A stretch of 64,000 nucleotides of DNA, from assembly GCA_965237835.1 (NCBI GenBank), contig OZ250160.1, positions 1,225,439 through 1,289,438 on the forward strand, in the 5' to 3' direction. Source of the DNA: Candidatus Poribacteria bacterium. GTDB taxonomy: Bacteria > Poribacteria > WGA-4E > WGA-3G. The first letter of the stretch is position 1, and every line of letters starts with the position of its first letter. This document shows, in pieces, positions 12,101-40,762 of this stretch. A model generated the notes under the pieces. The model worked only from the letters and a program-made list of their open reading frames with translations. It made no database searches and was not told the DNA's origin. The position numbers were made by a program, and so were the translations under genes.

Positions 12101-13440
12101 CTTGGTCATAGCACCCACCACCTAAAGGCGGGGGCTTGTGCTTCACAGACAACAACAATCCCGAAGGATTGACTTATATCGTCTCCACGTGGGGTTCTAA
12201 GCAGCCCCTAAGTATGTTTATAGCAGCATTGATGTCTCTGTCGTGGTGGGAGCCACATTTTGGACATGTCCACTGTCTATCTCTAAGAGAAAGATTATCG
12301 TTATGATACCCGCAATCGGAACAAGGTTTCGTTGTCGCAGTCCACTGTCCAACTTGATGGAACTCACGATTATGTTTGAAACATTTGAACTTCAATATCT
12401 CAACAAACTGATAGAAGGCAAGGTCAGAGACTTTACGTCCCCAAAGCCTTTTCATACCGTCAAGGTTCAGCGTTTCGGTTGCGATGAAGTCAAACCTTCG
12501 GCAAAGGTCGGTGGCAAGTTTCCAATGCCAGTCTCTACGTTGGTTGCTGACTTTGCTATAGAGTATAGCGAGTGCTCTGACAGCACGCCCCCAGTTGCCA
12601 GAACCTCTAACTTTACGACTAACATTTTTGTTAAGGGTTCTCAACTTGTTCAAAGATTGTTTCGAGAATTGTGGGCTCTGTATCTTTTCACCAGTGCTAA
12701 GCGTCAAAAAGGTTTTCAATCCAAAGTCTATCCCTACGCTCTTACCCGTAGCAGACAAGACTTCTTTGCTTGTGTCATCAGTGATAATATAGACCCAGTA
12801 TTCTCCTGCAGCGTCTCGGAGGATTTGGACATAGCGGACATTACCTTGACAGTCGCGGTGCTGATGGAAAGAATACCAGATACGGTCAAACTTCAAAGAT
12901 TGTGTTTTATCATTCCACGTTTTGAAAGAGATACGGAGACGCCCATTCTCAAGTCTGTATCCTGTTGGAAATTTAGCAGAGCGCATCTTGTGTGGTTTTT
13001 TCAATTTAGGCAAACCAACCTTTTTGCCACCATTCTTTTTATAGACAAAAAAACGTTGGTAAGCAGTGTCAAGACGGATGATAACAGCGTCAAGTGTGTC
13101 TCTTGGTATCCAAGCCCAGTGTTTTTTAGTCCGGTTGAGCAACTTCGTCAAATGCGGTTGCAGACGATACCTGCCAGCATATTTACCATAAATGCGGAAG
13201 TACCGTTGCTCAAGACGCAGGAAGTGATTATGCACGGCTGCCAAATCGTCAAGCATATTACCCAAACGTTTGTTTTTACCATGATTGCGTATCTTGTGTT
13301 TGTAGGTGCGCATCGCTTATATCCTTCACATTGCTTTCCGATACTATTCGGTTGGTAGGGACTATCTCAAGCGAGATAGATAGTATTCCCTACCAGCAAT
13401 GCTAAATATAGCATAACATAGATTGGCATTATTTGTCAAC
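12101..13440 (-). mobile_element. IS605-family (IS1341-like, tnpB-only) insertion sequence
   Basis: Intact tnpB, downstream right-end hairpin ccccgcctttaggtggtggg, upstream left-end hairpin cccctacctgaaggcagggg; splits the COG1373 ATPase gene. Confidence 0.75.
12174..13313 (-). CDS. tnpB: IS605 OrfB-family transposase-associated RNA-guided nuclease
   Basis: 379 aa; RuvC-like motifs and C-terminal zinc finger CSDCGYHNDNLSLRDRQWTCPKCGSHHDRDINAAINI; 371-aa antisense ORF is a shadow. Confidence 0.9.
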   Translation of the reverse strand: MRTYKHKIRNHGKNKRLGNMLDDLAAVHNHFLRLEQRYFRIYGKYAGRYRLQPHLTKLLNRTKKHWAWIPRDTLDAVIIRLDTAYQRFFVYKKNGGKKVGLPKLKKPHKMRSAKFPTGYRLENGRLRISFKTWNDKTQSLKFDRIWYSFHQHRDCQGNVRYVQILRDAAGEYWVYIITDDTSKEVLSATGKSVGIDFGLKTFLTLSTGEKIQSPQFSKQSLNKLRTLNKNVSRKVRGSGNWGRAVRALAILYSKVSNQRRDWHWKLATDLCRRFDFIATETLNLDGMKRLWGRKVSDLAFYQFVEILKFKCFKHNREFHQVGQWTATTKPCSDCGYHNDNLSLRDRQWTCPKCGSHHDRDINAAINILRGCLEPHVETI

Positions 13441-15674: not shown

Positions 15675-18254
15675 ATGGAAATTACACGACCATTTTTACT
15701 ATTACTGTTGCTATTAATACCAGTCCTTTACTACGGTTTTCGACGCAGCCTGGTAGATTTGTCTCGAACCCAGCGACTAATTAGCCTATGTATCAGAATC
15801 ATTATTGTTCTGCTACTTATCCTAAGTGTAGCAGATCTCCAATATCTGAAAACAGGTGATAAACTTACAGTGATGTTTCTGGCAGATATTTCTGATAGCA
15901 TTTCAGAGGATGGCTTAAAAAAATCAACGGAATATATCAGCGAAGCAATCAAATCACGTAATGGGAATCAAGAAACCGGTATTATAGCCTTTACTGAAAA
16001 AGCCGAAATTCTTGAAGACCCTGATATTCAAGATCAGGAAAAGTCGGAAGGGGAATTTAAACTCGTTGAAATCAAGAAAACTTGGTTGGATGAGAATGAG
16101 GATGTTGGCGACACTACGAATATCGCACAAGCAATTGAAACGGCATGGAGTGTTTTCCCCGCGAATGCAAACAAAAGGATTGTCCTGATAACGGATGGTA
16201 TTGAAACACAGGGGGATGCTATTCACACTGGACTGCGTGGGAAAGACTTCGGTATACAGATTGACACGGTGCCTATTTATCCAAGCGATGAACCGGAGGT
16301 AATGGTACAGCGAATTGAGGCACCGGCACAGGTCAAACAAGGGGCACCCTTTAATCTTGAAGTGCTTATCCACAGCAATCATGAAGATATTGCAGAAATC
16401 CGTCTATCTAAAAACAAGTTTGAGGCAGCCAAAAAAGAGGTCCGTCTCGTTGAAGGCGAAAATCGCGTTGTTTTTACTGAAACATCTATGGAAAGCGGAA
16501 CATTAACCTATGACGCAATTTGTCGCACGACACAAGACACCCGCTATGACAACAATCGTGCATTCGGTATCGTTTCAGTTTCTGGTAAACCTAGAGTCTT
16601 GCTCATTGATGAGAACGAATCCCAAACTCGATACTTAATGCGTGTTCTTGAAGATGCTAAGATCCGTGTTGATGTGCGCAACGGATTAGGCGTTCCGAAT
16701 GAACTTGCTGATCTCCAAAACTATGAACTTATTGTCTTTAGCGATGTTCCCGCTAACCGTCTAAACGAGAAACAGATGGAACTTATCCGCACTTATGTCC
16801 AAGACCTTGGAGGCGGATTTATGATGCTCGGTAGTGAGAACAGTTATGGATTGGGTGGCTACTACAAGACCCCAATTGAAGAAATTTTACCTGTTCGAAC
16901 CGACACCGAAAAGAAGAAGGAAACCCCCTCCTTAGCAATGGTGCTCGTGATTGACAAGTCAGGAAGTATGGGTGGTACCAAGATAGAATTAGCAAAAGAG
17001 GCAGCACGTGCAACCGTGGAACTGCTCGGTCCGCGCGATAAAATCGGAATTATCGCTTTTGATGGTTCACCCTTCTGGATTACAGAGATGCATGATGCCT
17101 CTGACAAACAATTCATATCAAATCAGGTTGGTTCAATCGTAGCAAGTGGCGGCACAAATCTCTATCCGGCACTGCAACAGGCATATTATGCACTAACAGA
17201 GACAACTGCCAAACTCAAGCACGTCATCGTTCTTAGCGATGGACACTCACAAGGTGGGGATTGGTATGGTATTGCCAATTCTATGCATTCAGAACAGATC
17301 ACTATTTCTTCAGTCGGTATCGGTAGTGGTGCAGACATGAATCTGTTAGGTAACCTTGCCAAGTGGGGTGGTGGACGCGACTATTTCACGCAAGACCCTT
17401 ATAATATCCCGCAAATCTTTGCTAAGGAAACCGTAACCGCTTCCAAATCAGCTATCATTGACGAACCGTTCATCCCCCAACGTATCAAACCGACCCAAGT
17501 TTTGAGTGGGATTGACCTTGGACTCGCGCCTTTCCTACTCGGGTACGTATCAACCCAACCACGCCCCACCGCTGAAATTTTCCTTGTTTCCGATCGTGGT
17601 GATCCAATTCTGGCAAGTTGGCAATACGGTTTAGGGAAATCTGTCGCATTCACCTCTGATGCAAAAGCTCGATGGGCAACGGATTGGTTAGAATGGCCCG
17701 GCTACGGTAAGTTCTGGACTCAACTTGTCCGTGATACAATGCGAAAAACAACACTCAGCAATTTTCAAGCAGAAATCACCAAAGAAAAGGGAGTAGCACA
17801 TCTTGCGATTGATGCGCTCAGTGAAGAAGGTCAGTTCCTGAACGAATTGGACAGCGAAATTTCACTTATCGGTCCCGATCTCAAAAAGAAGCAACTAACA
17901 ATCTCACAAACCTCACCCGGACGATATGAACTTGATTTTCCAACGCAAGATGTCGGTCCCTATTTCCTGAACATCATGCAAAAACAAGGAAGCGAAATTG
18001 TTAATACCCAAGTAACTGGCACTGTCGTTTCCTATCCTGAAGAATATATTGTTCACAACGCGAATGAATCGCTTCTAACACAACTCTCATCTGTGTCTGG
18101 TGGAAAATTCAACATTTCTGCTGAGGACGCATTCCGTTCCCCCGAAAATCCTGTAACGCTTCGGATTCATCTGTGGCGTCCCTTCCTTATCGTCGCGTTA
18201 ATCCTTTTACTCATTGATATTGCACTGCGCCGTATTGATATGAGACGTTCCTAA
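15675..18254 (+). CDS. large BatA_N + von Willebrand factor A domain protein with GATase1-like region
   Basis: 859 aa; N-terminal double-TM aerotolerance domain; vWA MIDAS region MVLVIDKSGSMGG...GGTNLYPAL; C-terminal TM. Confidence 0.8.
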   Translation: MEITRPFLLLLLLLIPVLYYGFRRSLVDLSRTQRLISLCIRIIIVLLLILSVADLQYLKTGDKLTVMFLADISDSISEDGLKKSTEYISEAIKSRNGNQETGIIAFTEKAEILEDPDIQDQEKSEGEFKLVEIKKTWLDENEDVGDTTNIAQAIETAWSVFPANANKRIVLITDGIETQGDAIHTGLRGKDFGIQIDTVPIYPSDEPEVMVQRIEAPAQVKQGAPFNLEVLIHSNHEDIAEIRLSKNKFEAAKKEVRLVEGENRVVFTETSMESGTLTYDAICRTTQDTRYDNNRAFGIVSVSGKPRVLLIDENESQTRYLMRVLEDAKIRVDVRNGLGVPNELADLQNYELIVFSDVPANRLNEKQMELIRTYVQDLGGGFMMLGSENSYGLGGYYKTPIEEILPVRTDTEKKKETPSLAMVLVIDKSGSMGGTKIELAKEAARATVELLGPRDKIGIIAFDGSPFWITEMHDASDKQFISNQVGSIVASGGTNLYPALQQAYYALTETTAKLKHVIVLSDGHSQGGDWYGIANSMHSEQITISSVGIGSGADMNLLGNLAKWGGGRDYFTQDPYNIPQIFAKETVTASKSAIIDEPFIPQRIKPTQVLSGIDLGLAPFLLGYVSTQPRPTAEIFLVSDRGDPILASWQYGLGKSVAFTSDAKARWATDWLEWPGYGKFWTQLVRDTMRKTTLSNFQAEITKEKGVAHLAIDALSEEGQFLNELDSEISLIGPDLKKKQLTISQTSPGRYELDFPTQDVGPYFLNIMQKQGSEIVNTQVTGTVVSYPEEYIVHNANESLLTQLSSVSGGKFNISAEDAFRSPENPVTLRIHLWRPFLIVALILLLIDIALRRIDMRRS

Positions 18255-18279: not shown

Positions 18280-18610
18280 GATAAACAGATTCAACAGGGT
18301 TATTTAGTTTTAGGCTTTTTGTCCATTTTAGACGAAAAGTCGCGATTCGGAGATCGCTCCTACAGCGGAAAGTCTTAGATTGAAAACCTAAATATTCGGA
18401 GAACTAAATAGCCCTGCAGATTCAATGACTACTGCTTTGTCCACCTAATTTTTGTGGTTTGTAGGTCGGGTAGAGCGTCCGCGAAACCCTCTGCTCTACC
18501 CGACCTACAATATTTTGGTGGACATAGCACTACTGTCCGTTGGGTAGAACGGAATCCACAATAAAATCCGACACAAAAAAGTGATTCATCCTCCATTTAA
18601 GATGTTTTAG
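18280..18610. repeat. nested repeats: family-H element (ttaacgtgagttcgata terminus) containing a family-C element (18297..18414)
   Basis: 18541-18610 is reverse complement of 52470-52540; family-C core gtcgcgattcggagatcgctcctacagcggaaag. Confidence 0.75.
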
Positions 18611-18612
18611 GA

Positions 18613-19974
18613 TTAAATTGAATAGATCATTCGACTCGCTTCTTCAAATTCAGGTTCAAGCGGGTCAGTGGATAGGTATAACTTTTGATATGGTTCATAA
18701 AGTTGGATATAACTCCAATTTACGCCACAAAGAACTTTTCCATTATTAACAAGTTTGATAAATCTACCGCGAAATTTAGCACGTGTGTTTTGAGGGGGGG
18801 CATGCATAGCGCGGCGAATCTGAGAATCATCTAAAATCCGTTCAGTCAACCCTCGTTTTTCGGCTTTGTAGAAAATGCTGTCATCTTGTCGAATGTTGTG
18901 GTATTCCAAATCTAAACGTTTCACTTCAGCGGAATCCCAGCCTATAGAACGGTGGTTGACGTAGGTTTCAATCCATTTTCGCTTGATGACCCAATCAAGT
19001 TCACGATCCAACTGCATTGGATCATCTTCAAGACAAGTCATAACATATTCCCAACGCGCCATAACTTCATCGGTCGTTGGATCAGATTCTGCCTGCTCAA
19101 GATACTTTTTTGCACACTCAAAGTATTGCCATTGAAGCTCAATTGCAGATAGCCGTTTCCCGTTCTCGAGTTCAATTAGTCGTTTGCAGGATATATCTTC
19201 AGATATTTCGTGAATGGCTTGCACAGAATTACGGAGTGCAAACCTTTCATTGATAAAATGATCCTCAATCATACGGAGGATAATCCCAGTTGTTCCGACT
19301 TTCAAAAATGTTGAAAATTCGGACATATTAGAATCACCTACGATGACATGCAATCGTCTATATTTCTCTCTGTCAGCGTGGGGTTCGTCTCGTGTGTTGA
19401 TAATGCCACGAGCGGTAGTTGTAGCGATGGAAATTTCTTCTCGGATATGTTGTGCGCGTTGCGAAATCTCATAGTAGCCTTGATCACTATGTTTGACTTT
19501 TCCCGCGCCCGAGAAAATTTGCCGAGTGACAAAAAAAGGGATGAGTTGTGATGCCAACTGCCGAAAACTAACTTTTTCGCGCTCCATCAGATAGTTTTCA
19601 TGACATCCGTAGGTATTGCCTACTGTATCTAAGTTATTTTTAAATATTGAGATTTTACCTCGAAACCCATCAGTACGCATCCTGCGTTCAGCAGTGGTGG
19701 CAAGCCGTGTGACGATTCGTTCCCCTGCTTTATCGTGTGCGACCAGTTCAATTACGTCATCACATTCAGGAGTGGCATATTCAGGATGGCATCCAATGTC
19801 TTGATAAAACCGTGCGCCGTTTTCCAAAAACACATCCGGATACATTCTCCCAGAAATTATTTCACGAAACAGATACATCACGACATTCTGAACAGTAAGT
19901 TTTTTGCTTTTGTTTTTCTCTGGGGTACAGATTATCCCGTATTCGGTTTCCAATCCGTATATTCTACGATGCAT
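18613..19974 (-). CDS. pafA: Pup-protein ligase
   Basis: 453 aa; MHRRIYGLETEYG, NGARFYQDIGCHPEYATPECD, NTRDEPHADREKYRRLHVIVGDSNMSE; lacks the Dop-specific insertion. Confidence 0.9.
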   Translation of the reverse strand: MHRRIYGLETEYGIICTPEKNKSKKLTVQNVVMYLFREIISGRMYPDVFLENGARFYQDIGCHPEYATPECDDVIELVAHDKAGERIVTRLATTAERRMRTDGFRGKISIFKNNLDTVGNTYGCHENYLMEREKVSFRQLASQLIPFFVTRQIFSGAGKVKHSDQGYYEISQRAQHIREEISIATTTARGIINTRDEPHADREKYRRLHVIVGDSNMSEFSTFLKVGTTGIILRMIEDHFINERFALRNSVQAIHEISEDISCKRLIELENGKRLSAIELQWQYFECAKKYLEQAESDPTTDEVMARWEYVMTCLEDDPMQLDRELDWVIKRKWIETYVNHRSIGWDSAEVKRLDLEYHNIRQDDSIFYKAEKRGLTERILDDSQIRRAMHAPPQNTRAKFRGRFIKLVNNGKVLCGVNWSYIQLYEPYQKLYLSTDPLEPEFEEASRMIYSI

Positions 19975-20674
19975 GGTTAAAAATCTCAGTTATCTCTTCA
20001 ACAGAAAACCGGCGAAATTTACGACGACCTGCAGCTGAATCAAGACACGCAACTTCAATGGTCTCTGGTGTTATCTGATACGGTTCCGACTCTTCACCCT
20101 CAATGGATTCAAAAGTTTTTGAGGCAAGTTGTAACGCATCGGCTAATTCCAAACCCTCAGCATAAGTCTCATTAAGTATCTCAGTAATAGAACCTGCTCT
20201 GCCTCCTATTACAGCAAACTTTTCCTTTTCCTCATAGGTACCATCAAAGGTCATCCTATAAATCTGACTTCTATTAATAGGATTTCTATCCACCTCGCAT
20301 ACGAGCAGTTCAACCTCAAGCGGTTTCACGTCCCATGCGTGGGCAATTGCCCCCATGTGTTGTGAATAGAGGTTCGTCAACCATTTCCCAGTGACATCTT
20401 CTCGATAATAGGTATACCCTTTCACTTCTGCTTCACGTATACCTGCCACTCTTAGTGCTTCATATTCGGAAACACGACCGGTTGAAGCGAGTGCAATTTT
20501 GTCATAAATTTCAGAAATCTTAAATATGGTTCTACGGGGGTTTTCGGCAACCATCAGAAGGCCGTTGTTATACTCTAAAACAATCACTTCCTTCGCTTGT
20601 TCAATTCCATGATCGACAAAAACCCTTTTATCTTCCCAAATTTGATCAGGTGACACGTAATAAGGCGTTGACAT
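19964..20674 (-). CDS. prcA: 20S proteasome alpha subunit
   Basis: 236 aa, bacterial PrcA-like; immediately downstream of prcB. Confidence 0.85.
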   Translation of the reverse strand: MSTPYYVSPDQIWEDKRVFVDHGIEQAKEVIVLEYNNGLLMVAENPRRTIFKISEIYDKIALASTGRVSEYEALRVAGIREAEVKGYTYYREDVTGKWLTNLYSQHMGAIAHAWDVKPLEVELLVCEVDRNPINRSQIYRMTFDGTYEEKEKFAVIGGRAGSITEILNETYAEGLELADALQLASKTFESIEGEESEPYQITPETIEVACLDSAAGRRKFRRFSVEEITEIFNHAS

Positions 20675-20715
20675 TTATCTCCTTGAATTTAAGAAAACTT
20701 GATGATGTAGACCTA

Positions 20716-21504
20716 CTATTGCTCTAAGCGAGAAATTAACTCTTGGAACAATCCTGCAACAGTATCGTCCGAAACATCGGAAATACCTTCTTCAGTAATT
20801 ACTGTCAGCGTTGGAAAGATTTTCCTAATTAAATCGGGTCCTCCAGTCGCAATATCCTCGTCTGCAGCGTCCCAAAGTGCCTCAACGACTGCTTTTAAGG
20901 CGGCTTGTTCAGACATATCCGATTGATACACCTTTTTTAAAGTTGAACGCGCATCTTTCCCACCGGAACCGATAGCATAATAGGCGTCTTCCTCATAACG
21001 TCCGCCAAGTGCATCATATTTAAAAATTCGCCCCTTTTGTTGTTTTAGGTCATAGCCAGCAAAAATCGGCAGGACAACCAGCCCTTGCATAGCTAAACTT
21101 AAATTCGTTCTAACGAGGCTTGACAGATAGTTGGCTTGCCCATCCAGACTTAAAGAAATTCCCTCTATCTTTTCGTAAAATTCAACTTGAACTTGGAAAA
21201 GTTTTGCTGTTTCAAAACAGGGCCCCGCTACACCAGCGACAGCAATTGCAGAGTGTTTATCAATTTTAAACACTTTCTGAATCCGACGTTCCCCGACTTG
21301 GTAACCTTCGGTAGCTTGACGGTCCCCAGCGATTATGACACCATTATCGTATACAAGTGCCAGAACAGTAGTCCCTTCCAAAAAATTATGGGGGTAGGAC
21401 TCCCGCATCCCATTGAGTCGGTCCCAATCAGCTACCTTATCAGGGTATCGGTTTTTCAGAATTTGTAAAAAATCGGTATTTCCATAGTCATGGTGTTTGA
21501 GCAA
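20716..21504 (-). CDS. prcB: 20S proteasome beta subunit with propeptide
   Basis: 262 aa; propeptide then active-site threonine context EG/TTVLALVY; GGPDLIRKIFPT conserved. Confidence 0.9.
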   Translation of the reverse strand: MLKHHDYGNTDFLQILKNRYPDKVADWDRLNGMRESYPHNFLEGTTVLALVYDNGVIIAGDRQATEGYQVGERRIQKVFKIDKHSAIAVAGVAGPCFETAKLFQVQVEFYEKIEGISLSLDGQANYLSSLVRTNLSLAMQGLVVLPIFAGYDLKQQKGRIFKYDALGGRYEEDAYYAIGSGGKDARSTLKKVYQSDMSEQAALKAVVEALWDAADEDIATGGPDLIRKIFPTLTVITEEGISDVSDDTVAGLFQELISRLEQ

Positions 21505-21506
21505 TC

Positions 21507-21704
21507 CTACTGCCCTCCCCGCTGGATATAGTTTTCGACGAATTCCTCTGAATTTTCTTCTAAAATCTCATCGATTTCATCAAGAAGTGCATCTAAATCC
21601 TCAGTCAAATCGTCGACGTTTTCATTGAGTTCGGGATTGGGTTGGATCTCCTCATTTTCATTGGTGGGATGATCTCGGTATTCTTGCTGTTTTTCGCGTG
21701 GCAT
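21507..21704 (-). CDS. pup: prokaryotic ubiquitin-like protein Pup
   Basis: 65 aa, acidic, ...DLTEDLDALLDEIDEILEENSEEFVENYIQRGGQ; C-terminal GGQ as in Pup. Confidence 0.85.
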   Translation of the reverse strand: MPREKQQEYRDHPTNENEEIQPNPELNENVDDLTEDLDALLDEIDEILEENSEEFVENYIQRGGQ

Positions 21705-21796
21705 GTTGTACTCCTTTTCAATTCTGGCAACGGATACCCGTATGCCTCTATGTTTTCGAACATAATTCCATCAGGGAAAACTTTTTATCAACAAGA

Positions 21797-23284
21797 TTAT
21801 TTGCAGTTTGCTCGGATTTGGTTGACGAGTTCAACGACGGTACAAGAGTTCAGCAGTTCACCGATAATGGCTTGCGTGCCAAAGTGTGGACGGTCCATCA
21901 TAATCTTATCATAGCCGGTTGGACCGTTGAAAACGATTGAATTCCAGCTTACACTGTGAATGTCATTCGGAAATTTTCGTAAACATGTTCCTCGAAAATA
22001 TGCGCGCGTATCTAAAGGTGGATGTTGAATTGCATGGACTATTTCCTCCTGAGTTAAGATACGTTCAATATGTCCATTCTTGAGTAATCGTGCATAAAGT
22101 CCTTTATCTGGACGTAGGTCATGATACTGAAGGTCAAGCATACGAACGCGTGGGTCAGTCCATTTGAAATCGTGTCGCGCAATATAAGCATCAATAAGCT
22201 TTTTCTTAATAATCCAATCTAAATGCTGTCCTAAACTCATCGGGTCAGTTTTTAACCCATTTAGGACAAAATCCCATTTCTCCAAAACATCTTCAACTAT
22301 AGGTGTGCGTTCCTCATCCGTGAGATGTTTATGTGCCAGTTCAAGATATGCTTGCTGAATTTCTATAGCTGACCATTTACGATCATCTTTAAGTTCAATC
22401 TTGTTCTTGCATGACAAATCACGCGAAACAGATTTTACCATCGCAACAGGATCTTGTAAAGCGAATTGCTTACCGACAACACCTTTCTCAATTAATTGCA
22501 GGACGATAGACGTAATACCAACTTTCAGATAGATAGAGAATTCGGACAAGTTTGAATCGCCTACGATAACATGCAACCGACGATAAAACTTTGAATCTGC
22601 GTGCGGTTCGTCTCGAGTGTTGATCAAAGGACGTTCAACCATTGTGCTCAGACCGACCTCTTTTTCAAAGAAATCTGCGCGTTGTGAAATCTGATATTCG
22701 GTTTCGTCCGCTCCGTTTTCTACCCCCACCTTCCCACTTCCGGTAATTATCTGACGTGTAACGAGGAAAGGCGTGAACCCATCAACTATATCCGAAAACG
22801 GAATTTTACGTGACATCAAGTAATTTTCATGTGAACCGTAACTATGTCCTTTGTAGTCAGTATTGTTTTTATAGATAATTATCTCTTGATTATCCAATAG
22901 CAGTTGTTCGGCAGCAAGACGACTCAAATCTAAAATGAGTTCTCCAGCTTTTTCGTATTTGACCAAGTCGCGAGCATTTGAACATTCAGGTGTGCAATAT
23001 TCAGGGTGTGCGTGATCAACATAATATCTACCACCGTTCACCAAAATATCGTTTATTACACTGTTGTTCCCATCTTCTACTGGCGGGTTTTCGCCTTCCG
23101 CTATAAATCCACGTGCGTCTATCAATGGACTTTCTTGCGCGTAATCCCACGAAATTGTTGGAATGTTACGGCTTTTGTACGCGTTTACAACTAAGGTTGA
23201 AGCCGCTATAGGGTCTTGCTCTCGCGCATTTTTGACAGAGATGCCGAACTCAGTTTCGGTGCCTATAATTGTTGGTACTGCCAT
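21797..23284 (-). CDS. dop: Pup deamidase/depupylase
   Basis: 495 aa; GTETEFG, Dop-specific insertion (SWDYAQESPLIDARGF), YVDHAHPEYCTPEC, NTRDEPHAD. Confidence 0.9.
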   Translation of the reverse strand: MAVPTIIGTETEFGISVKNAREQDPIAASTLVVNAYKSRNIPTISWDYAQESPLIDARGFIAEGENPPVEDGNNSVINDILVNGGRYYVDHAHPEYCTPECSNARDLVKYEKAGELILDLSRLAAEQLLLDNQEIIIYKNNTDYKGHSYGSHENYLMSRKIPFSDIVDGFTPFLVTRQIITGSGKVGVENGADETEYQISQRADFFEKEVGLSTMVERPLINTRDEPHADSKFYRRLHVIVGDSNLSEFSIYLKVGITSIVLQLIEKGVVGKQFALQDPVAMVKSVSRDLSCKNKIELKDDRKWSAIEIQQAYLELAHKHLTDEERTPIVEDVLEKWDFVLNGLKTDPMSLGQHLDWIIKKKLIDAYIARHDFKWTDPRVRMLDLQYHDLRPDKGLYARLLKNGHIERILTQEEIVHAIQHPPLDTRAYFRGTCLRKFPNDIHSVSWNSIVFNGPTGYDKIMMDRPHFGTQAIIGELLNSCTVVELVNQIRANCK

Positions 23285-24410
23285 TAGTGATACTCACGAC
23301 GGAAACCAAAGCCGTGTGCTTCTTTTAGCACACAACCATCCTCTGTGATTCCTGCTTCCGTCTCTCGTGCCTCAAACAGAGGTCTTACTTGGACTCCACA
23401 GGCGTTTATACTCTCTGTCTATCCGACAGCAAGGTGTTTTAGGTTTATTGCAGCGTTGACATCTCTATCTATTTGATAGTCGCATTGACTGCAATGATAA
23501 GTTCTCTCTGATAGCGTCAAGTCATCTTTTTTGTGTCTACAACTACTACAAGTTTTGCTTGATGCATAGAATTGCGGTGCTTCTAATACAGGTATTCCGA
23601 AAGCATCTGCTTTCGTTTTTAGCTTATTTAGAAACCCGCCTAACGCTGAATCTGATAACGCCTTTGCTAACTTTCTATTCTTTAGCATGTTTGTCACCTT
23701 GAGTGTTTCTATGCTGATAGCACCTGCACGACGGATAATATCGGTAGTTGCTTTGTGGTGCACATCGTTTCTGATACAAGCGATACGATAGTGGATACGT
23801 TCTACCTTGTGTTTTTGTTTAGACCAGTTATTTGATCTAAACACTTTACGGCTCAACTTTCGTTGATCTCGTTTGAGTTTTCTCTCATAGCGTTTTAGGG
23901 GTCTTGGATTATCATACTTAGTCCCATCACTCAAGGTTGCCATTGTTGTTAAGAGTTCACCACGATTGGAAGTTGTCTTGATCTAAACCTGCCTTGAAAT
24001 CTGACAACGCTTGATTATATGCAAATCTCGCATAGCCACATTGTTGTGAAAACCAGCGTCTTTGCTTAAAAGTGGGATCTAAAGTTATTTTGTGTGTTTT
24101 GTATGGCATATCTGACTCCCATAGGTTTCTGACTCCCTCGTCAAAGGTGTGGTAGGTGTTGACGCACCCACCACTGAGTCAGTCTTATAATTATACCACA
24201 AAATACATGTAAATGTCAAGCGTTTTTTGACCCACAACCAGGGTTATTTAGTTTTAGACTTTTTGTCCATTTTAGACGAAAAGTCGCGATTCGGAGATCG
24301 CTCCTACAGGGGAAAGTCTTAGATTGAAAATCTAAATATTCGGAGAACTAAATAGCCCTGGACCCACAACTAAAGCAGTGGGATTGTCAGCTAATTCCCT
24401 TCACTTTCGG
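23285..24410 (-). mobile_element. degenerate IS605-family element filling the arc-dop spacer, with a nested family-C MITE (24241..24358)
   Basis: Right-end module (taaacgcctgtggagtcc...gtgtgctaaaagaagcacac hairpin) abuts dop start codon; left-end hairpin (cactgctttagttgtgggtc) abuts arc stop codon. Confidence 0.65.
23419..24115 (-). pseudogene. tnpB: tnpB with internal deletion (N-terminal 57 codons then stop; C-terminal 174-codon ORF)
   Basis: C-terminal ORF has RuvC-II/III and zinc finger (CSSCRHKKDDLTLSERTYHCSQCDYQIDRDVNAAIN); reverse complement of 24000-24115 encodes MPYKTHKITLDPTFKQRRWFSQQCGYARFAYNQALSDF... then stop. Confidence 0.7.
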
Positions 24411-24432
24411 AATCAAGTGGAATCATCAAACG

Positions 24433-26238
24433 TTAGAGATATGTCCCGCCTGTGCTCACTCGCACATCAGGACGTGCCTGTGGTTCATTGATTAAGGCTC
24501 GAATGTTGACAATTTTCTCACCTTTCCTGCCAGATATTTTTGCCCAATCATCTGGATTAGTTGTATTTGGAAGGTCTTCATTTTCATGGTACTCTTCCCG
24601 AATAGCAGTCTTCAGATCATGCAGAGAAATTCCTTTTTCTTTCCCTTCTGAACTGATTAGACGTTTAATCGCTATTTTCTTTGCCCGTGAAACAATGTTT
24701 TGAATCATCGCACCGCTAACGAAATCTTTGAAAAAGAGAGTCTCGCGTTCGCCGCGGGTGTATGTTACTTCAATAAACCTATTCTCATCTGTGGTCGCGT
24801 ACATTTCGTCTACAGCCGCAGATATGAGGTATTCTGAAACGTCATCAGTATTTCCATCAAACTTTTCTATTTCTTTTTTCGCAAACGGAAGATCCGGCGT
24901 TAAATAGATACCAAAAATATCCTTAGCACCGTCAATATTCGGACGGTCAATCTTGATTTTGATGTCAAGTCTTCCCGGTCTCAAAACAGCGGGATCCAGA
25001 AGGTCCTGTCGATTACTTGCGCCGATAACAATAACATCACGTAAATTTTCTACGCCATCAATTTCTGCGAGAAACTGTGGTACCAGTGTAGACTCCATGT
25101 CTGATGAGATACCTATGCCGCGTGATCGGAACAGTGAGTCCATTTCGTCGAAGAAGATAACTACTGGGAAACCCTCTTTTGATTTTTCACGTGCTTTTAG
25201 GAACACCTCTCGTATCTTTCGTTCAGTTTCACCGACATACTTATTGAGAATTTCTGGTCCCTTAATATTTATAAAATACCCTCTAATATCATCTCTATCG
25301 GTCTGTTGACGAATACGTTCTGCGAGGCAATTGGCAACCGCTCGCGCAATTAATGTTTTTCCACAGCCTGGCGGTCCATACAGGAGTACACCTTTTGGCG
25401 GCATAAGATCAAATTCGCGGTACTCATCTGGATAAAGATAAGGCATTTCAATGGCGTCTCGAATCGCCTCTATCTGTGTATCCAAACCACCGATGTCAGC
25501 ATAACTAATATCTGGAACTTCTTCGAGCAGTAGGTCATCAAGTTCGCGTTTTGGAAGTTTTTCAAGTAGCATACCGCTGGTATGATTCAATAAGACGCTG
25601 TCGCCGGTCTTCAAAGTTTCGTTTTTCAACGCTGCAGAAACGCGCACGACTTGTTCTTCATCTGTTCTGAGGTTGACAATAGCGCGGTCAGATTCAAGTA
25701 CCTCTTTTATCTTAACAACATCACCGTGTTTCTCAGGCTGTTTGATTGCGATGACATTTAAGCCACTATTCACGATGACTTCTTGTCCTACTTGTATTTG
25801 ATCGGCTTTTATGGCAGGATCAAGATTCACACGCCATTTTTTTCCGCTGATATCTACATCAATAGTGTTGTCATCGTTCGCACTAAGGAAGATGCCGTAG
25901 TTGTTTGGAGGGGCACTGAGTTGCTTAACCTTCTCTTTTAGGAGTTCAAGTTTCTCTTTTGCTTCTTGAAGGGTACTTGTGATTTTTCGGTTGCGTCTGT
26001 GCGCCTGCATAAGTTCGCGCGTCATTTCATAGAGACGTGCGTCTACATCTTCATCAGGAGCTGCTCTGAGTTGTCTTCTCAGGTCACCGACTTCGTTCTC
26101 AAGCATCTCTATCTGCCAATTTAACTCACGTATTAACTGTGGATAGTCAACCGAATCTGATTTGATCCCTTCAATATCGGGACCTTTCAATATATCAGAT
26201 GAAGTCTCTATTTTGCTTGCCATACAAGAATTTCTCAC
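24433..26238 (-). CDS. arc: proteasome-associated AAA ATPase (ARC/Mpa)
   Basis: 601 aa; N-terminal coiled coil, AAA+ GPPGCGKT; C-terminal ...GGTYL resembles GQYL docking motif. Confidence 0.9.
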   Translation of the reverse strand: MRNSCMASKIETSSDILKGPDIEGIKSDSVDYPQLIRELNWQIEMLENEVGDLRRQLRAAPDEDVDARLYEMTRELMQAHRRNRKITSTLQEAKEKLELLKEKVKQLSAPPNNYGIFLSANDDNTIDVDISGKKWRVNLDPAIKADQIQVGQEVIVNSGLNVIAIKQPEKHGDVVKIKEVLESDRAIVNLRTDEEQVVRVSAALKNETLKTGDSVLLNHTSGMLLEKLPKRELDDLLLEEVPDISYADIGGLDTQIEAIRDAIEMPYLYPDEYREFDLMPPKGVLLYGPPGCGKTLIARAVANCLAERIRQQTDRDDIRGYFINIKGPEILNKYVGETERKIREVFLKAREKSKEGFPVVIFFDEMDSLFRSRGIGISSDMESTLVPQFLAEIDGVENLRDVIVIGASNRQDLLDPAVLRPGRLDIKIKIDRPNIDGAKDIFGIYLTPDLPFAKKEIEKFDGNTDDVSEYLISAAVDEMYATTDENRFIEVTYTRGERETLFFKDFVSGAMIQNIVSRAKKIAIKRLISSEGKEKGISLHDLKTAIREEYHENEDLPNTTNPDDWAKISGRKGEKIVNIRALINEPQARPDVRVSTGGTYL

Positions 26239-26382
26239 TTTCCATTGAAAAGATTGATGGTATGGTAGAAAAAAGGTTGGATTACATTAAACCAACCTTA
26301 GTGCATAAAAGTATAGCATGTTGAAAATATTACATCAAGGAAAAACACAAGTGGCATTTGGTTTTGAACAAAGTATCGCTAT

Positions 26383-26445
26383 AAATCGGGTTACAAACCC
26401 CTTGAATAAGAAATATCGGGATTACAAATCTCTCATACAAGAGTC
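26383..26445. repeat. two family-G hairpin units (reverse orientation)
   Basis: aaatcgggttacaaaccccttgaa / atcgggattacaaatctctcatacaag are reverse complements of the units at 8159-8250. Confidence 0.6.
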
Positions 26446-26460
26446 TTCTGATTAATAATC

Positions 26461-27573
26461 TTAATTTTCGTCGTCAGGTTCTGGGGTTGTATCATCAACA
26501 TCTGGGATGGATCCTGCTCCAGATTCAGAAACTGCACCGAGGTTCTCACGGATTTTTTTGTCAAGCTCCGCCATAATTTCCGGATGCTGCTCCAAATAGG
26601 TTTTCGCATTATTCCGACCTTGACCTATCCGTTCGTTGTTATATGAGAACCATGAACCTCTTTTCTCAACCAACTCTGCATCAACAGCGATATCCAAAAT
26701 GGTTCCCTCTTTGGAAATTCCCTTGCCAAAAGTCACATCAAATTCTGCTTCTTTGAAAGGGGGGGCAACCTTGTTTTTCACCACCTTGACAAGGACTCTG
26801 TTTCCAAGCACATCAGTGCCTTCTTTTATCTGTGTGGCACGACGAATTTCTAATCGGACAGAGGTATGAAACTTCAGTGCAAGTCCGCCTGGGGTTATAT
26901 CAGGATTACCAAATATGATACCTATCTTTTGGCGAATCTGGTTGGTAAAAATGACGCACGTTTTCGATTTGCTTGTCACACTCGATAGTTTTCTTAAAGC
27001 CTTAGACATCAAACGCGGGAGCAATCCGACATGTGCATCACCCATCTCACCTTCAACTTCTGCTTGGGGTGTCAATGCGGCAACAGAATCAATAATGACA
27101 ACATCAATTGCACCACTCCGTATAAGGGTTTCCACAATCTCTAATGCTTGTTCGCCAGAATCTGGCTGTGAAATCAGGACATTTTCAAGGTTGACACCGA
27201 TATTTCGCGCGTAAGTTGTGTCTAATGCGTGTTCAACGTCAATAAAAGCCGCTATTCCACCCAGTTTCTGTGCTTCAGCGACGATGTGGAGTGCTAGCGT
27301 GGTTTTTCCTGTCCCCTCATGTCCAAAAATTTCGATAATTCTTCCTCTTGGCACTCCACCAACGCCTAACGCTATATCAAGCGAAAGGGCTCCGGTAGGG
27401 ATAACTTCCACAGGTACCACTTCGTTGTCTGTAAAACGCATAATTGCACCTTTTCCGTAAGCACGTTCTACCTGAGAAATGGCATCGTCAACTGCCTTCT
27501 TTTTCTTTTCAGCTTTCTTTTGTTCTTCCGGACTTTTTTCATTTTCCGGCTTTTTGCGATCATCATTTGCCAT
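26461..27573 (-). CDS. recA: recombinase RecA
   Basis: Walker [19 protein letters not shown], conserved C-terminal domain; start taken at MANDDRKK (27573) because the upstream extension overlaps thpR. Confidence 0.9.
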
Positions 27574-28171
27574 TTTCGACTTTCTCCCTGCCCAACTGAT
27601 AATTTTGTATTGGGGTATAGACTGCACCACTGGGTCGCAACTCACTTTTGACAAGTGTGATTTTATCCACTGTCAGGAATGCCCCCTCAATTGTTTCAAA
27701 TTTTTTAAATAATTTGATATAAGTACTCAAATTCACTTGGTTTTTTAACCGTGCGAGTGTTAAATGCGGATGAAACCGATTTTCATTCGAAAAACCCAAC
27801 TTTACCAATTCATCGTCAATTGTACTCGCCAACGTTGATAATTGGATTGTCCCGCGTTTGATACCTACCCATAATACACGAGGTTGCACTAAATTTGGAA
27901 ATGCGCCAACTCCACCAATTTCTATAGAAAATGGTTTTTGTTGTCCTGCTGTCCTATGTAAAGATGCGTCTATCTGATTGACACTGTTGTTCTCTACCTC
28001 TCCGATAAACTTCAATGTCAGATGAATATTTCTGGGTTTCGTCCAGGATGCTCTTTCAATCTTCGGGCGAAATGCCTCCTGAATCTCTGTTAATAAATCC
28101 TGAATACTTTCTGGTATCTCAACAGCAACAAAACACCGAATAGACTCAGGTTGCATTAGAATTGACCTCAA
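27563..28171 (-). CDS. thpR: RNA 2',3'-cyclic phosphodiesterase (2'-5' RNA ligase family, LigT/ThpR)
   Basis: 202 aa; two H-x-T-x motifs (HLTLKF, HLTLARL); TGA stop. Confidence 0.8.
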
Positions 28172-37318: not shown

Positions 37319-37404
37319 TTTTTCACCATTTTCGATATTAATTCTTAACGGTTTATTGTATCACATCATTGCTTGAAAGTCTATAGAAAATTAAGGTAGT
37401 AGCA

Positions 37405-37523
37405 GGGTTATTTAGTTTTAGGCTTTTTGTCCATTTTAGACGAAAAGTCGCGATTCGGAGATCGCTCCTACAGCGGAAAGTCTTAGATTGAAAACCTAAA
37501 TATTCGGAGAACTAAATAGCCCT
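37405..37523. repeat. family-C MITE-like element
   Basis: Near-identical to 18297..18414 and 24241..24358. Confidence 0.85.
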
Positions 37524-37555
37524 GAAGATAGTAGTCGCACTCCGCGTGCCGTAAT

Positions 37556-39929: not shown

Positions 39930-40703
39930 ATGCTTACGCGTAAACAGAAATTAGAATTCTATGAAAATGGTTATATAAAAGTTCCTGGTGTCGTGCCGAA
40001 GTTAATGATAGATGCTGCTCGCAAGACAATCAATCATTCTATCGGTGCTGTTGGACTGCATGAGGGGGACTTAGAAAAGTTTCGTGCACAATCGTATTGC
40101 AGCGAGATTAGGAAGGCACCGCAAATTGTGGATATTTTCAGTAAAACACCTATCCAAAATATCGCTGAATCGATGTTAGGTGAGGGAAATGTGCAAGTGC
40201 CAGGTTCAGGACAGATAGCACTTCGGTTTCCGATGCCGTTAGACCGCGATGCAAATGAACCACGCGGACACCTTGATGGATTAGGCAATGGATCAAACGG
40301 AATGGCGAAGGGTGTTTATCGGCGCGGTTTTACAGCGTTAGCAGTGGTATATCTGGCAGATGTTCCTGAACCGTATAGCGGTAACTTCACGGTATGGCCC
40401 AAAACACACAGTTTCTTTGCGGACTATTTTAAAAAGGAAGGGCATGAGGTTTTAGCAAATGGAATGCCACGACCAGAACTTCCTGAAGGTCCCACACAAA
40501 TAGTCGGCAAGGCTGGAGATGTCGTTCTGACACATCACCAGGTCGTCCACTCAGCAGCGCCGAATGCGTCCCCAGATGTCCGTTACGCGGTTATTTTTCG
40601 TGTGCGGCATGTTGACTGTGCCGAAAACAGTTATGATAGTTATACCGATATTTGGCGTGAATGGCCGGGAATTCAGGAAGCATTAGACGCGGCAAATAAC
40701 TAA
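39930..40703 (+). CDS. phytanoyl-CoA dioxygenase (PhyH) family Fe(II)/2-oxoglutarate oxygenase
   Basis: 257 aa; YENGYIKVPGV N-terminus, H-x-D and distal His typical of PhyH fold. Confidence 0.7.
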   Translation: MLTRKQKLEFYENGYIKVPGVVPKLMIDAARKTINHSIGAVGLHEGDLEKFRAQSYCSEIRKAPQIVDIFSKTPIQNIAESMLGEGNVQVPGSGQIALRFPMPLDRDANEPRGHLDGLGNGSNGMAKGVYRRGFTALAVVYLADVPEPYSGNFTVWPKTHSFFADYFKKEGHEVLANGMPRPELPEGPTQIVGKAGDVVLTHHQVVHSAAPNASPDVRYAVIFRVRHVDCAENSYDSYTDIWREWPGIQEALDAANN

Positions 40704-40762
40704 ACTTGCAGCTTAGGGAGAAATAAGAAACGGTTGCCCTGCGGAAATGCTTGTGTATAGTT

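What the first reader, a model, noticed from the sequence alone, without database searches (positions are those of the whole stretch)
18613..26238. Complete Pup-proteasome gene set (arc - dop - pup - prcB - prcA - pafA) in an apparently non-actinobacterial, Gram-negative-type context
All six components are present, collinear on the minus strand, with 0-90 bp spacers (except arc-dop). Pup ends in GGQ, so it requires Dop deamidation before PafA ligation. Dop carries its diagnostic insertion. PrcB has a propeptide and the G/TT active-site context. ARC ends in ...GGTYL, resembling the GQYL motif that docks Mpa into the 20S core. Surrounding genes (LolA-like, GT9 heptosyltransferase, Bat/MoxR aerotolerance cluster, hisZ) suggest a diderm non-actinobacterial host, in which pupylation systems are uncommon and mostly reported from lineages such as Nitrospirota and Verrucomicrobiota.
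Basis: partly seen in the sequence, partly recalled or inferred. Interest (0 to 1): 0.55.

Follow-up and report, generated by a model that had tools for sequence, protein, structure and literature searches.

The report
Pup-proteasome operon in a Poribacteria genome
This is a complete, canonical bacterial "ubiquitin-like tag plus proteasome" gene set in a genome of Poribacteria (mostly sponge-associated, Gram-negative-type bacteria); every related Poribacteria genome I could examine has it too, so it is an ordinary system in a lineage where the papers I could search do not discuss it.

Summary
Six collinear minus-strand genes encode ARC/Mpa (24433-26238), Dop (21797-23284), Pup (21507-21704, ends GGQ), PrcB (20716-21504), PrcA (19964-20674) and PafA (18613-19974). 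All have strong family and PDB matches and intact catalytic signatures.

The host is not actinobacterial. The window lies on a single 5.93-Mb contig. The adjacent RecA is 78-86% identical to Candidatus Poribacteria MAGs, against 66% or less for anything else found.

The locus is inherited within the lineage:
- All seven related Poribacteria species found share lolA-pgsA-ligT-recA-arc-dop-pup-prcB-prcA-pafA.
- A deep-branching Poribacteria MAG has the same six-gene order in different flanks.
- GC and GC3 of the genes match the genome.

In a rough NJ tree, Poribacteria Dop forms a clade (99% bootstrap). Its sister clade contains Entotheonellia and Limnocylindrales Dops, not the actinobacterial Dops sampled.

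NCBI already annotates these proteins as Dop in Poribacteria. No paper in the searchable library discusses them.

Two things are specific to this genome. The arc-dop gap holds a 122-bp MITE and a decayed tnpB element, and that element carries a perfect sigma-70 consensus promoter reading toward dop.

Verdict: real and correctly interpreted. It is a new member of a known kind, of modest interest.

The parts
24433..26238 (-). arc/mpa: proteasome-associated AAA ATPase, 601 aa from the GTG start (596 aa if the ATG at 26223 is used). It has an N-terminal coiled-coil region, two OB domains, an AAA module and the C-terminus ...GGTYL.
   Evidence: TIGR03689 708.5 bits, PF17758 + PF16450 + PF00004. Matches M. 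tuberculosis Mpa 7px9_A at 588.7 bits over residues 27-586. C-termini in Poribacteria are GGTYL, GGTFL, SGTFL or GPYL.
24239..24360 (-). 122-bp MITE with terminal inverted repeats CAGGGCTATTTAGTT / AACTAAATAACCCTG, flanked by the duplication GTTGTGGGTC. Inserted in the arc-dop spacer.
   Evidence: Further copies at 18295-18416 and about 37403-37524.
23285..24228 (-). Decayed IS200/IS605-type tnpB-only element. It consists of an HTH ORF (23957-24109), a C-terminal ORF (23419-23943, 174 aa, covering TnpB model positions 208-389 only) and a structured 3' tail (23285-23440) that ends at the dop start codon.
   Evidence: PF12323, PF01385, PF07282 and NF040570. Single copy in the genome. Absent from the other Poribacteria loci. 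The tail folds with z = -3.0.
24190..24219 (-). Perfect sigma-70 consensus promoter-like site (TTGACA, 18 nt, TG-TATAAT) at the 5' end of the tnpB remnant, reading toward dop.
   Evidence: 12 of 12 matches with an extended -10, the only perfect site in the 8.4-kb scan. This is a consensus match only; function is not shown.
21797..23284 (-). dop: Pup deamidase/depupylase, 495 aa, with the Dop loop.
   Evidence: TIGR03688 570.3 bits. Acidothermus Dop 4b0r 466 bits. AF2 model pLDDT 84.9, TM 0.88-0.93 to Dop crystal structures. Dop-type VDHA-HPEY motif.
21507..21704 (-). pup: prokaryotic ubiquitin-like protein, 65 aa, acidic, C-terminus ...EEFVENYIQRGGQ.
   Evidence: PF05639 72 bits, TIGR03687 54.9. 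Residues 27-65 align to M. tuberculosis Pup. GGQ in 7 of 8 close Poribacteria, GGE in L003 and L082.
20716..21504 (-). prcB: 20S proteasome beta subunit, 262 aa. TTG start 2 nt after the pup stop, 44-aa propeptide, Thr1/Asp17/Lys33.
   Evidence: TIGR03690 282.1 bits. Residue 45 aligns to residue 1 of mature Rhodococcus beta (1q5q_H). The 2-nt spacer and non-ATG start are conserved in 8 of 8 genomes.
19964..20674 (-). prcA: 20S proteasome alpha subunit, 236 aa, N-terminus MSTPYYVSPDQI, similar to M. tuberculosis MSFPYFISPEQA.
   Evidence: TIGR03691 237.3 bits. M. tuberculosis PrcA 3h6f_A 168.8 bits over residues 1-225.
18613..19974 (-). pafA: Pup ligase, 453 aa, no Dop loop. Overlaps prcA by 11 nt.
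   Evidence: PF03136 507.6 bits. TIGR03686 521.2 (cut-off 551.3) against 414.6 on the Dop model. Full-length match to C. glutamicum PafA 4b0t. PafA-type QD-I-G-C-HPEYAT motif with the one-residue insertion plus Gly, and the alpha-loop His.
18459..18510 (-). Perfect 18-bp inverted repeat about 100 nt downstream of the pafA stop. Possibly the operon's terminator or a REP-like hairpin.
   Evidence: The terminator role is inferred.
26461..27573 (-). recA: the conserved upstream neighbour of arc, used here as the taxonomic marker.

Best explanation
The locus is a complete, canonical Pup-proteasome system (PPS). It was vertically inherited in a Candidatus Poribacteria genome.

Mechanism, inferred from the actinobacterial paradigm:
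1. Pup is made with a C-terminal Gln.
2. Dop deamidates the Gln to Glu.
3. PafA uses ATP to phosphorylate the gamma-carboxylate of that Glu and joins it to a lysine of a target protein.
4. The ARC hexamer captures Pup on its N-terminal coiled coils and threads and unfolds the substrate.
5. ARC docks its C-terminal G-T-Y-L tail, with its penultimate aromatic residue, into pockets between PrcA subunits.
6. ARC feeds the chain into the PrcA7-PrcB7-PrcB7-PrcA7 core. There the Thr1 exposed by autocleavage of the 44-residue PrcB propeptide does the proteolysis.
7. Dop also removes Pup again.

What is shown here: gene identity, intact motifs, the Dop fold, synteny, host lineage and conservation.

What is inferred: every biochemical step, expression and substrates.

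In this genome a MITE and a decayed tnpB element separate arc from dop. The tnpB remnant supplies a consensus promoter reading toward dop. That promoter probably now contributes to dop-pup-prcBA-pafA transcription, but this is inferred.
For: - Family and structure matches for all six proteins.
- Residue-level checks:
  - PrcB G44|T45, D17, K33.
  - Dop-type and PafA-type discriminating residues from Table 1 of PMC7947786.
  - Pup helix region and GGQ.
  - ARC C-terminal aromatic-hydrophobic motif, compared with GQYL as described in PMC8223512.
- Host: RecA is closest to Poribacteria; single 5.93-Mb contig.
- Vertical inheritance:
  - Identical synteny in 7 of 7 related Poribacteria species. 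PPS protein identities (72-95%) track RecA (78-86%).
  - Same six-gene order in a deep Poribacteria MAG with 58% identical Dop.
  - Named hits among the top 113 Dop hits are all Poribacteria, spanning 99 to 56% identity; one Poribacteria cluster lies at 54%.
  - Poribacteria Dop clade has 99% bootstrap.
  - Native GC and GC3.
- Translational coupling is conserved: a 2-nt pup-prcB spacer with GGAGG inside the Pup Gly-Gly codons in 8 of 8 genomes, and an 11-nt prcA-pafA overlap in the three closest genomes.
Against: - No expression, pupylome or activity data exist for any Poribacteria; the lineage is uncultured.
- PafA scores slightly below NCBIfam's equivalog cut-off (521 against 551).
- The ARC tail is GTYL, not GQYL, and in most relatives the aromatic residue is Phe. 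Docking to the 20S core is therefore assumed, not shown.
- The mobile-element insertions upstream of dop include a hairpin followed by a T-rich stretch at 23337-23310, immediately before the dop ATG. These could disturb dop expression in this strain.
- No PafBC or Bpa homologue was seen, but only 64 kb could be inspected.
Confidence: 0.9

Rival explanations
1. The locus is actinobacterial DNA that is mis-assembled or mis-binned into this genome, or the genome itself is actinobacterial.
For: PPS is overwhelmingly actinobacterial in the literature (PMC8223512; PMC7947786). PDB best hits are all actinobacterial, but the solved structures of these proteins that were matched are all actinobacterial.
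Against: - Single 5.93-Mb contig.
- recA and lolA-pgsA-ligT are contiguous with the locus and syntenic in seven other Poribacteria assemblies, including complete chromosomes.
- GC of 42% with GC3 equal to recA.
- Dop is only 43-46% identical to the actinobacterial Dops sampled.
Confidence: 0.01
2. The PPS is a recent horizontal acquisition by this strain or a narrow sublineage, not a lineage-wide trait.
For: - PPS outside Actinobacteria is usually explained by horizontal transfer (PMC7947786).
- Mobile elements (MITE copies, tnpB remnant) lie inside and next to the locus.
Against: - Present with the same order in all eight close genomes and in a deep Poribacteria MAG.
- Poribacteria Dops span 99-54% identity yet form one clade with 99% bootstrap.
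- No compositional anomaly.
- The mobile elements are private to this genome.
Confidence: 0.04
3. The genes are present but the system in this strain is partly disabled or rewired. The MITE and tnpB insertion uncouples dop-pafA from arc and may attenuate or over-drive dop, so the output may be pupylation as regulation rather than efficient Pup-dependent degradation.
For: - The arc-dop spacer is 1148 nt here, against 49-152 nt in five relatives.
- A perfect consensus promoter inside the insertion reads toward dop.
- A hairpin plus T-rich tract lies 26 nt before the dop ATG.
Against: - All six ORFs are intact with conserved catalytic residues.
- Close relatives L002 and L003 also tolerate 431-nt and 1073-nt insertions at the same spot. 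This suggests arc and dop are separately transcribed anyway.
- Promoter and terminator calls are only consensus matches, and the total counts are not above the shuffled expectation.
Confidence: 0.08
4. The small protein is the UBact type of tag reported for Gram-negative phyla rather than bona fide Pup.
For: The host is a Gram-negative-type lineage. As I recall it, Lehmann et al. 2017 (cited in PMC5751360; the paper itself is not held) proposed UBact for such phyla.
Against: - The protein hits the Pup family models above their cut-offs.
- Its last 39 residues align to M. tuberculosis Pup, including LLDEID..LEEN.E.FV..Y.Q.GGQ.
- It ends GGQ (GGE in L003 and L082), not the basic ...R-T/S-G-E ending that I recall for UBact (memory only).
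Confidence: 0.01

Closest known systems
Actinobacterial Pup-proteasome system (M. tuberculosis Mpa-Dop-Pup-PrcB-PrcA ... PafA; Rhodococcus and Acidothermus homologues)
   Same: - The same six components in the same order.
- Pup C-terminal helix region and GGQ.
- Dop loop.
- PafA-type active-site insertion.
- PrcB propeptide with Thr1/Asp17/Lys33.
- PrcA N-terminal gate sequence.
- ARC coiled coil, double OB domains, AAA module and beta-grasp region aligned end to end with Mpa.

   Different: - The host is Poribacteria with diderm-type genes nearby (LolA-like, GT9).
- The locus is more compact than in M. tuberculosis.
- There is no pafBC after pafA. The next gene is a convergent VWA/Bat-like gene.
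- The ARC tail is GTYL, GTFL or GPYL instead of GQYL.
- Sequence identity to the actinobacterial Dops sampled is only 43-46%.
- recA is the conserved upstream neighbour.
[quoted passage not shown] Entotheonellia and Ca. Limnocylindrales)
   Same: - The nearest non-Poribacteria Dops found are from Ca. Entotheonellia (53.5%) and Ca. Limnocylindrales (54.5%).
- An unlabelled genome of that sister clade (L083, GCA_037441565.1) has the same compact arc-dop-pup-prcB-prcA-pafA operon and a LolA gene nearby.
   Different: - The L083 ARC ends in the canonical AGQYL.
- Poribacteria form their own clade (99% bootstrap) that joins this group at 91.5% in a distance tree.
- Poribacteria are not in the distribution list of PMC7947786.
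Archaeal PAN-20S proteasome with SAMP/ubiquitin-like tagging
   Same: - 20S alpha and beta Ntn-hydrolase subunits.
- An AAA ATPase with coiled coil and OB domain. Weaker hits to the PAN and archaeal alpha/beta models are seen.
   Different: - The tag is disordered Pup, not a beta-grasp protein.
- Ligation is by a glutamine-synthetase-fold enzyme (PafA), not E1-like chemistry.
- The bacterial-specific models score far higher than the archaeal ones.

Membership tests
Pup-proteasome system (bacterial, Pup type) | Small, disordered, acidic Pup with a conserved C-terminal helix region ending in Gly-Gly-Gln/Glu | tested here: met
   PF05639 72 bits (cut-off 27) and TIGR03687 54.9 (cut-off 41.45). 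Residues 27-65 align to M. tuberculosis Pup and end GGQ.
Pup-proteasome system (bacterial, Pup type) | Dop: glutamine-synthetase-fold amidase with the roughly 40-residue Dop loop and Dop-type residues beside the catalytic Asp | tested here: met
   TIGR03688 570.3, above the 492.3 cut-off. Loop of 44 residues against 13 in PafA. VDHA-HPEY motif. Model TM 0.88-0.93 to Dop crystal structures, with the loop disordered.
Pup-proteasome system (bacterial, Pup type) | PafA: paralogous ligase without the Dop loop, with the PafA-type one-residue insertion plus Gly after the catalytic Asp and the alpha-loop His | tested here: met
   PF03136 507.6 bits. D-I-G-C-HPEY-A-T motif and alpha-loop His. Full-length match to C. 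glutamicum PafA. Caveat: TIGR03686 scores 521.2, below the equivalog cut-off of 551.3.
Pup-proteasome system (bacterial, Pup type) | ARC/Mpa AAA ATPase with an N-terminal coiled coil, tandem OB domains and a C-terminal proteasome-docking motif (GQYL, penultimate aromatic) | tested here: inconclusive
   The family and architecture criteria are met: TIGR03689 708.5, PF17758 + PF16450 + PF00004, Mpa 588.7 bits. The tail is GTYL (GTFL or GPYL in relatives). This keeps the penultimate aromatic and terminal Leu but not the Gln. Docking is not testable here.
Pup-proteasome system (bacterial, Pup type) | 20S core: a beta subunit with a propeptide and Thr1/Asp17/Lys33, plus an alpha subunit of the bacterial type | tested here: met
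   TIGR03690 282.1 and TIGR03691 237.3, both above their cut-offs. G44|T45, D17, K33. PrcA residues 1-225 align to M. tuberculosis PrcA.
Pup-proteasome system (bacterial, Pup type) | Demonstrated pupylation, depupylation and Pup-dependent degradation | not testable with these tools
   No cultured Poribacteria. No biochemical or proteomic data were found in the library.
Actinobacterial PPS accessory set (PafBC, Bpa/PafE, Cpa) | pafBC downstream of pafA; a Bpa-like protein ending in GQYL | tested here: not met
   The gene after pafA is a convergent VWA/Bat-like gene. Among ORFs of 80 aa or more in the window, only ARC ends in an aromatic-Leu motif. Only 64 kb of the 5.93 Mb was inspected, so absence from the genome is not shown.
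UBact-type conjugation-proteasome loci | A basic tag ending ...R-T/S-G-E (as recalled from Lehmann et al. 2017; the paper is not readable here) | tested here: not met
   The tag here is acidic, matches the Pup models and ends GGQ.
Candidatus Poribacteria (host assignment) | Housekeeping marker and synteny closest to Poribacteria genomes | tested here: met
   RecA is 78-86% identical to seven Poribacteria MAGs and 66% or less to others. A ten-gene syntenic block is shared. The window's Dop is in the same 90% cluster as NCBI MDE0088548.1 [Candidatus Poribacteria bacterium]. Ribosomal-protein or 16S placement was not possible, because none is in the window.

The most novel reading that the evidence does not exclude
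Poribacteria, Entotheonellia (another sponge-associated candidate lineage) and Limnocylindrales PPS genes form a distinct, old, non-actinobacterial branch of the Pup system. Either the PPS was exchanged between distantly related marine or sponge-associated phyla early on and then kept as a core trait of Poribacteria, or the system is older and broader than the 'actinobacterial invention plus sporadic transfer' model. Poribacteria would then be a third lineage, after Actinobacteria and Nitrospirae, where the PPS is a conserved phylum-level feature. It would have its own ARC docking-motif variant (G-T/P-Y/F-L).
Probability: 0.35. Interest if true: 0.45.

Novelty: new member of a known kind. Interest (0 to 1): 0.3.

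Why it matters
The result extends the set of lineages in which the Pup-proteasome system appears to be a conserved, vertically inherited trait. The new lineage is an uncultured, mostly sponge-symbiotic, diderm-type phylum. Reviews still describe bacterial proteasomes as restricted largely to Actinobacteria (PMC8223512). The Dop/PafA survey in PMC7947786 lists other phyla but not Poribacteria.

The Poribacteria sequences offer natural variants for structure-function work:
- ARC tails GTYL, GTFL and GPYL in place of GQYL.
- Both GGQ and GGE Pups within one lineage.

The result also raises the question of what a proteasome does for a sponge symbiont. It does not change the understanding of how the system works.

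Tried and rejected
- Rfam at gathering threshold over the window, and at E <= 1 over 18300-26700: only one tRNA-Arg, and nothing in the locus.
- No rRNA or ribosomal-protein marker is in the window, so RecA was used for placement.
- Foldseek against AFDB50, intended to give organism-labelled neighbours, was unavailable. Labels came instead from three cluster look-ups, so many tree tips remain unlabelled.
- The UBact paper (Lehmann et al. 2017) is not held. My recollection is that it lists Poribacteria among the candidate phyla with such loci. I could not check that recollection, nor its definition of the UBact C-terminus.
- Literature searches pairing Poribacteria or Poribacteriota with proteasome, pupylation, ubiquitin-like or PafA found nothing relevant.
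- The arc-dop spacers of the eight Poribacteria genomes share no nucleotide similarity, so the insertions are independent.
- The tnpB remnant is not a copy of the full-length tnpB at 12174-13313 (34% aa identity, no nucleotide match).
- I looked for a Bpa-like protein ending in G-x-Y/F-L in the window and found only ARC.
- Deep nodes of the NJ tree were not interpreted. Pairwise identities between the major groups are all 43-56%, so only the well-supported shallow clades are used.

Full report
**1. What is in the sequence**

Pfam and NCBIfam identify them as follows:

| Gene | Coordinates | Key scores |
|---|---|---|
| arc/mpa | 24433-26238 | TIGR03689 708.5 bits; tandem OB domains plus AAA |
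| dop | 21797-23284 | TIGR03688 570.3 |
| pup | 21507-21704 | PF05639 72 bits; TIGR03687 54.9 |
| prcB | 20716-21504 | TIGR03690 282.1 |
| prcA | 19964-20674 | TIGR03691 237.3 |
| pafA | 18613-19974 | TIGR03686 521.2 against 414.6 on the Dop model |

The PafA score is a little below the 551.3 equivalog cut-off. All other scores are above their cut-offs.

PDB sequence searches give full-length matches:
- M. tuberculosis Mpa, 588.7 bits.
- Acidothermus and mycobacterial Dop, about 466 bits.
- C. glutamicum PafA.
- Rhodococcus and M. tuberculosis PrcB and PrcA.
- M. tuberculosis Pup over the last 39 residues.

An AlphaFold model of Dop has pLDDT 84.9 and pTM 0.89. It superposes on Dop crystal structures at TM 0.88-0.93 and on PafA at 0.72-0.79. 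The glutamine-synthetase and GCS folds follow far behind.

**2.

- Pup ends ...EEFVENYIQRGGQ.
- The Dop loop is present. Dop has 44 residues where PafA has 13. The segment shares the conserved W-D-Y..E.PL.DARGF pattern with Acidothermus Dop. Residues 50-78 are disordered in the model.
- I used the discriminating positions in Table 1 of PMC7947786. The window's Dop has the Dop-type V-D-H-A-HPEY. The window's PafA has the PafA-type D-I-G-C-HPEY-A-T, with the one-residue insertion plus Gly, and the alpha-loop His.
- PrcB has a 44-residue propeptide. Thr45 aligns to residue 1 of mature Rhodococcus beta. Asp17 and Lys33 (mature numbering) are in place.
- ARC ends GGTYL. PMC8223512 describes the Mpa/Bpa GQYL motif as keeping the penultimate aromatic residue of HbYX. 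That aromatic residue and the terminal Leu are kept here, but the Gln is not.
- Spacers are 92, 2, 41 and -11 nt for dop-pup, pup-prcB, prcB-prcA and prcA-pafA. The arc-dop spacer is 1148 nt.

**3. Whose genome is it**

The exact Dop protein is encoded on a single 5,928,137-bp contig of ENA assembly ERZ26167216, which is also in NCBI. The window has no rRNA and only one tRNA. I therefore used recA, which lies directly upstream of arc, to scan one genome per GTDB species.

- The seven best loci are all Candidatus Poribacteria MAGs, at 78-86% identity. Everything else is 66% or lower.
- tblastn of the window's proteins against those seven loci finds the whole block lolA-pgsA-ligT-recA-arc-dop-pup-prcB-prcA-pafA in every one.
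- Identities for the PPS proteins are Arc 73-90%, Dop 72-90% and PafA 78-95%. These track RecA.
- GC and GC3 of the six genes equal those of recA and the window.
- PhyH and Laminin_G_3 genes are also present. From memory, these are typical of sponge-associated Poribacteria.

**4. How deep the system goes in Poribacteria and what it is related to**

- A search of 5.8 billion proteins with Dop returned, among the best 120, only Poribacteria wherever a source gave an organism name. These run from 99% down to 56% identity.
- A further Poribacteria cluster sits at 54%.
- The window's own 90% cluster contains NCBI MDE0088548.1, 'depupylase/deamidase Dop [Candidatus Poribacteria bacterium]'. Public annotation pipelines have therefore already named these genes.
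- A deep Poribacteria MAG (GCA_026004875.1, Dop 58% identical) has the same arc-dop-pup-prcB-prcA-pafA order in different flanks. Its Pup ends GGE and its ARC ends GPYL.
- An exhaustive HMMER scan of 50% cluster representatives, with cluster look-ups, shows the nearest non-Poribacteria Dops. They are Ca. Entotheonellia (53.5%) and Ca. Limnocylindrales (54.5%). Acidimicrobiia and Acidothermus Dops are 43-46% identical.
- I built a neighbour-joining tree of 139 sequences over 476 columns with 200 bootstraps. The Poribacteria clade has 99% support and the Entotheonellia/Limnocylindrales clade 99.5%. The two join at 91.5%.
- An unlabelled genome from that sister clade carries the same compact operon, with a canonical AGQYL tail on ARC.
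- Deeper nodes should not be trusted. All inter-group identities lie between 43 and 56%, and the method is distance-based.

**5. Mechanism**

By homology the locus should work as in mycobacteria:
1. Dop deamidates Pup-Gln.
2. PafA activates the resulting Glu with ATP and ligates it to substrate lysines.
3. ARC binds Pup, unfolds the substrate and docks on PrcA.
4. PrcB Thr1 degrades the chain.
5. Dop reverses pupylation.

Shown here are the parts, motifs, fold and conservation. Every biochemical step is inferred.

Conserved operon micro-architecture supports co-expression. In all eight close genomes a non-ATG prcB start lies 2 nt after the pup stop. The Pup C-terminal codons (CGG GGA GGG CAG) contain GGAGG about 10 nt upstream of that start. 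In the three closest genomes pafA overlaps prcA by 11 nt.

**6. The arc-dop gap**

Five relatives have 49-152 nt between arc and dop. L002 has a 431-nt palindromic insert and L003 a 308-aa ORF. The window has 1148 nt.

The window's gap holds two elements:
- A 122-bp MITE at 24239-24360, with 15-nt terminal inverted repeats and a 10-bp target duplication. Two more copies lie in the window at 18295-18416, just downstream of pafA, and at about 37403-37524.
- A decayed IS200/IS605-type tnpB-only element at about 23285-24228. It has an HTH ORF plus a 174-aa C-terminal ORF that lacks model positions about 46-208. From memory, that missing stretch holds the first RuvC motif. The element is single-copy in the genome and absent from relatives.

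The 5' end of the tnpB element carries the only perfect sigma-70 consensus site in the region: TTGACA, 18 nt, TG-TATAAT, at 24219-24190. It points toward dop.

The structured 3' tail of the element (z = -3.0) ends at the dop ATG. It includes a hairpin plus T-rich tract.

Whether this raises, lowers or leaves unchanged dop-pafA expression cannot be decided from sequence.

**7. Comparison with what is known, and novelty**

The system is a member of the Pup-type PPS by every sequence criterion tested. There are two soft spots: the PafA score is just under one curated cut-off, and the ARC docking motif is a variant.

It is not the UBact type as I recall that definition. The paper could not be read.

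Reviews describe bacterial proteasomes as largely actinobacterial (PMC8223512). [quoted passage not shown] Five literature searches found no paper linking Poribacteria with pupylation or proteasomes.

On the other hand:
- NCBI already annotates these genes.
- I recall, unverified, that Lehmann et al. 2017 listed Poribacteria among candidate phyla with such loci.
- Non-actinobacterial PPS has been known since 2008.

I therefore rate this a new member of a known kind, of modest interest (0.3). The most novel reading still open is that Poribacteria, Entotheonellia and Limnocylindrales represent an old non-actinobacterial PPS branch, maintained as a core trait in Poribacteria (probability about 0.35).

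Noticed in passing
window 24239-24360, 18295-18416, about 37403-37524 (all minus strand): A 122-bp MITE with terminal inverted repeats CAGGGCTATTTAGTT / AACTAAATAACCCTG and 9-10 bp target-site duplications (GTTGTGGGTC, TTGAATCTG). There are three near-identical copies in 64 kb. Two of them bracket the tnpB-remnant plus dop-pafA block. None is found in the other Poribacteria loci fetched.
   Followed up: partly
window 23285-24228 (minus strand): A decayed tnpB-only IS200/IS605-type element sits between arc and dop. It has an HTH ORF (23957-24109) plus a 174-aa C-terminal ORF (23419-23943) and is missing about 160 central residues. It is single-copy in the genome. It carries a perfect sigma-70 consensus promoter (24219-24190) reading toward dop, and a stable 3' structure (z = -3.0) ending at the dop ATG.
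   Followed up: partly
window 12174-13313 (minus strand): A full-length 379-aa TnpB (OrfB_IS605 plus Cas12f1-like TNB domain), only 34% identical to the remnant at 23.4 kb. It lies next to a DUF4143 gene. The overlapping plus-strand ORF 12243-13358 is probably spurious.
   Followed up: partly
window 21495-21525 and the same site in L002-L008: The pup stop codon is followed after exactly 2 nt by a non-ATG (TTG or GTG) prcB start in all eight Poribacteria. The codons for Pup's C-terminal R-G-G-Q (CGG GGA GGG CAG) contain a GGAGG Shine-Dalgarno-like sequence about 10 nt upstream of that start.
   Followed up: partly
L003 13181-14107; L002 13161-13591: The arc-dop spacer is an insertion hot spot in this clade. 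L003 carries an unrelated 308-aa hypothetical ORF there. L002 carries a 431-nt insert containing a 179-nt imperfect palindrome. Five other genomes have only 49-152 nt.
   Followed up: partly
L003 (pup, 15767-15964) and L082 (pup, 9593-9790): Two Poribacteria genomes encode Pup ending in GGE rather than GGQ, yet keep Dop. ARC C-termini vary within the phylum (GGTYL, GGTFL, SGTFL, GPYL), whereas the sister-clade genome L083 has the canonical GQYL.
   Followed up: partly
window 18459-18510: A perfect 18-bp inverted repeat (TTGTAGGTCGGGTAGAGC / GCTCTACCCGACCTACAA) lies about 100 nt downstream of pafA. It could be a terminator or a REP-like element.
   Followed up: no
window 39930-45770: A cluster of three PhyH (phytanoyl-CoA dioxygenase) domain genes and two Laminin_G_3 (concanavalin-like lectin) genes, plus a HEPN/nucleotidyltransferase fusion at 44146-44928.
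   Followed up: no
window 26461-27654 and L002-L008: recA is the immediate upstream neighbour of arc in all eight close Poribacteria genomes, but not in the deep MAG L082. In mycobacteria the PPS is functionally tied to the DNA-damage response (PMC8223512). Whether the adjacency here means anything is unknown.
   Followed up: no
(proteins P0168, P0222): Two Dop/PafA-family proteins in the representative search are labelled 'Candidatus Woesearchaeota archaeon' in NCBI nr. That would put a bacterial pupylation enzyme in archaeal MAGs, or it may reflect bin contamination.
   Followed up: no
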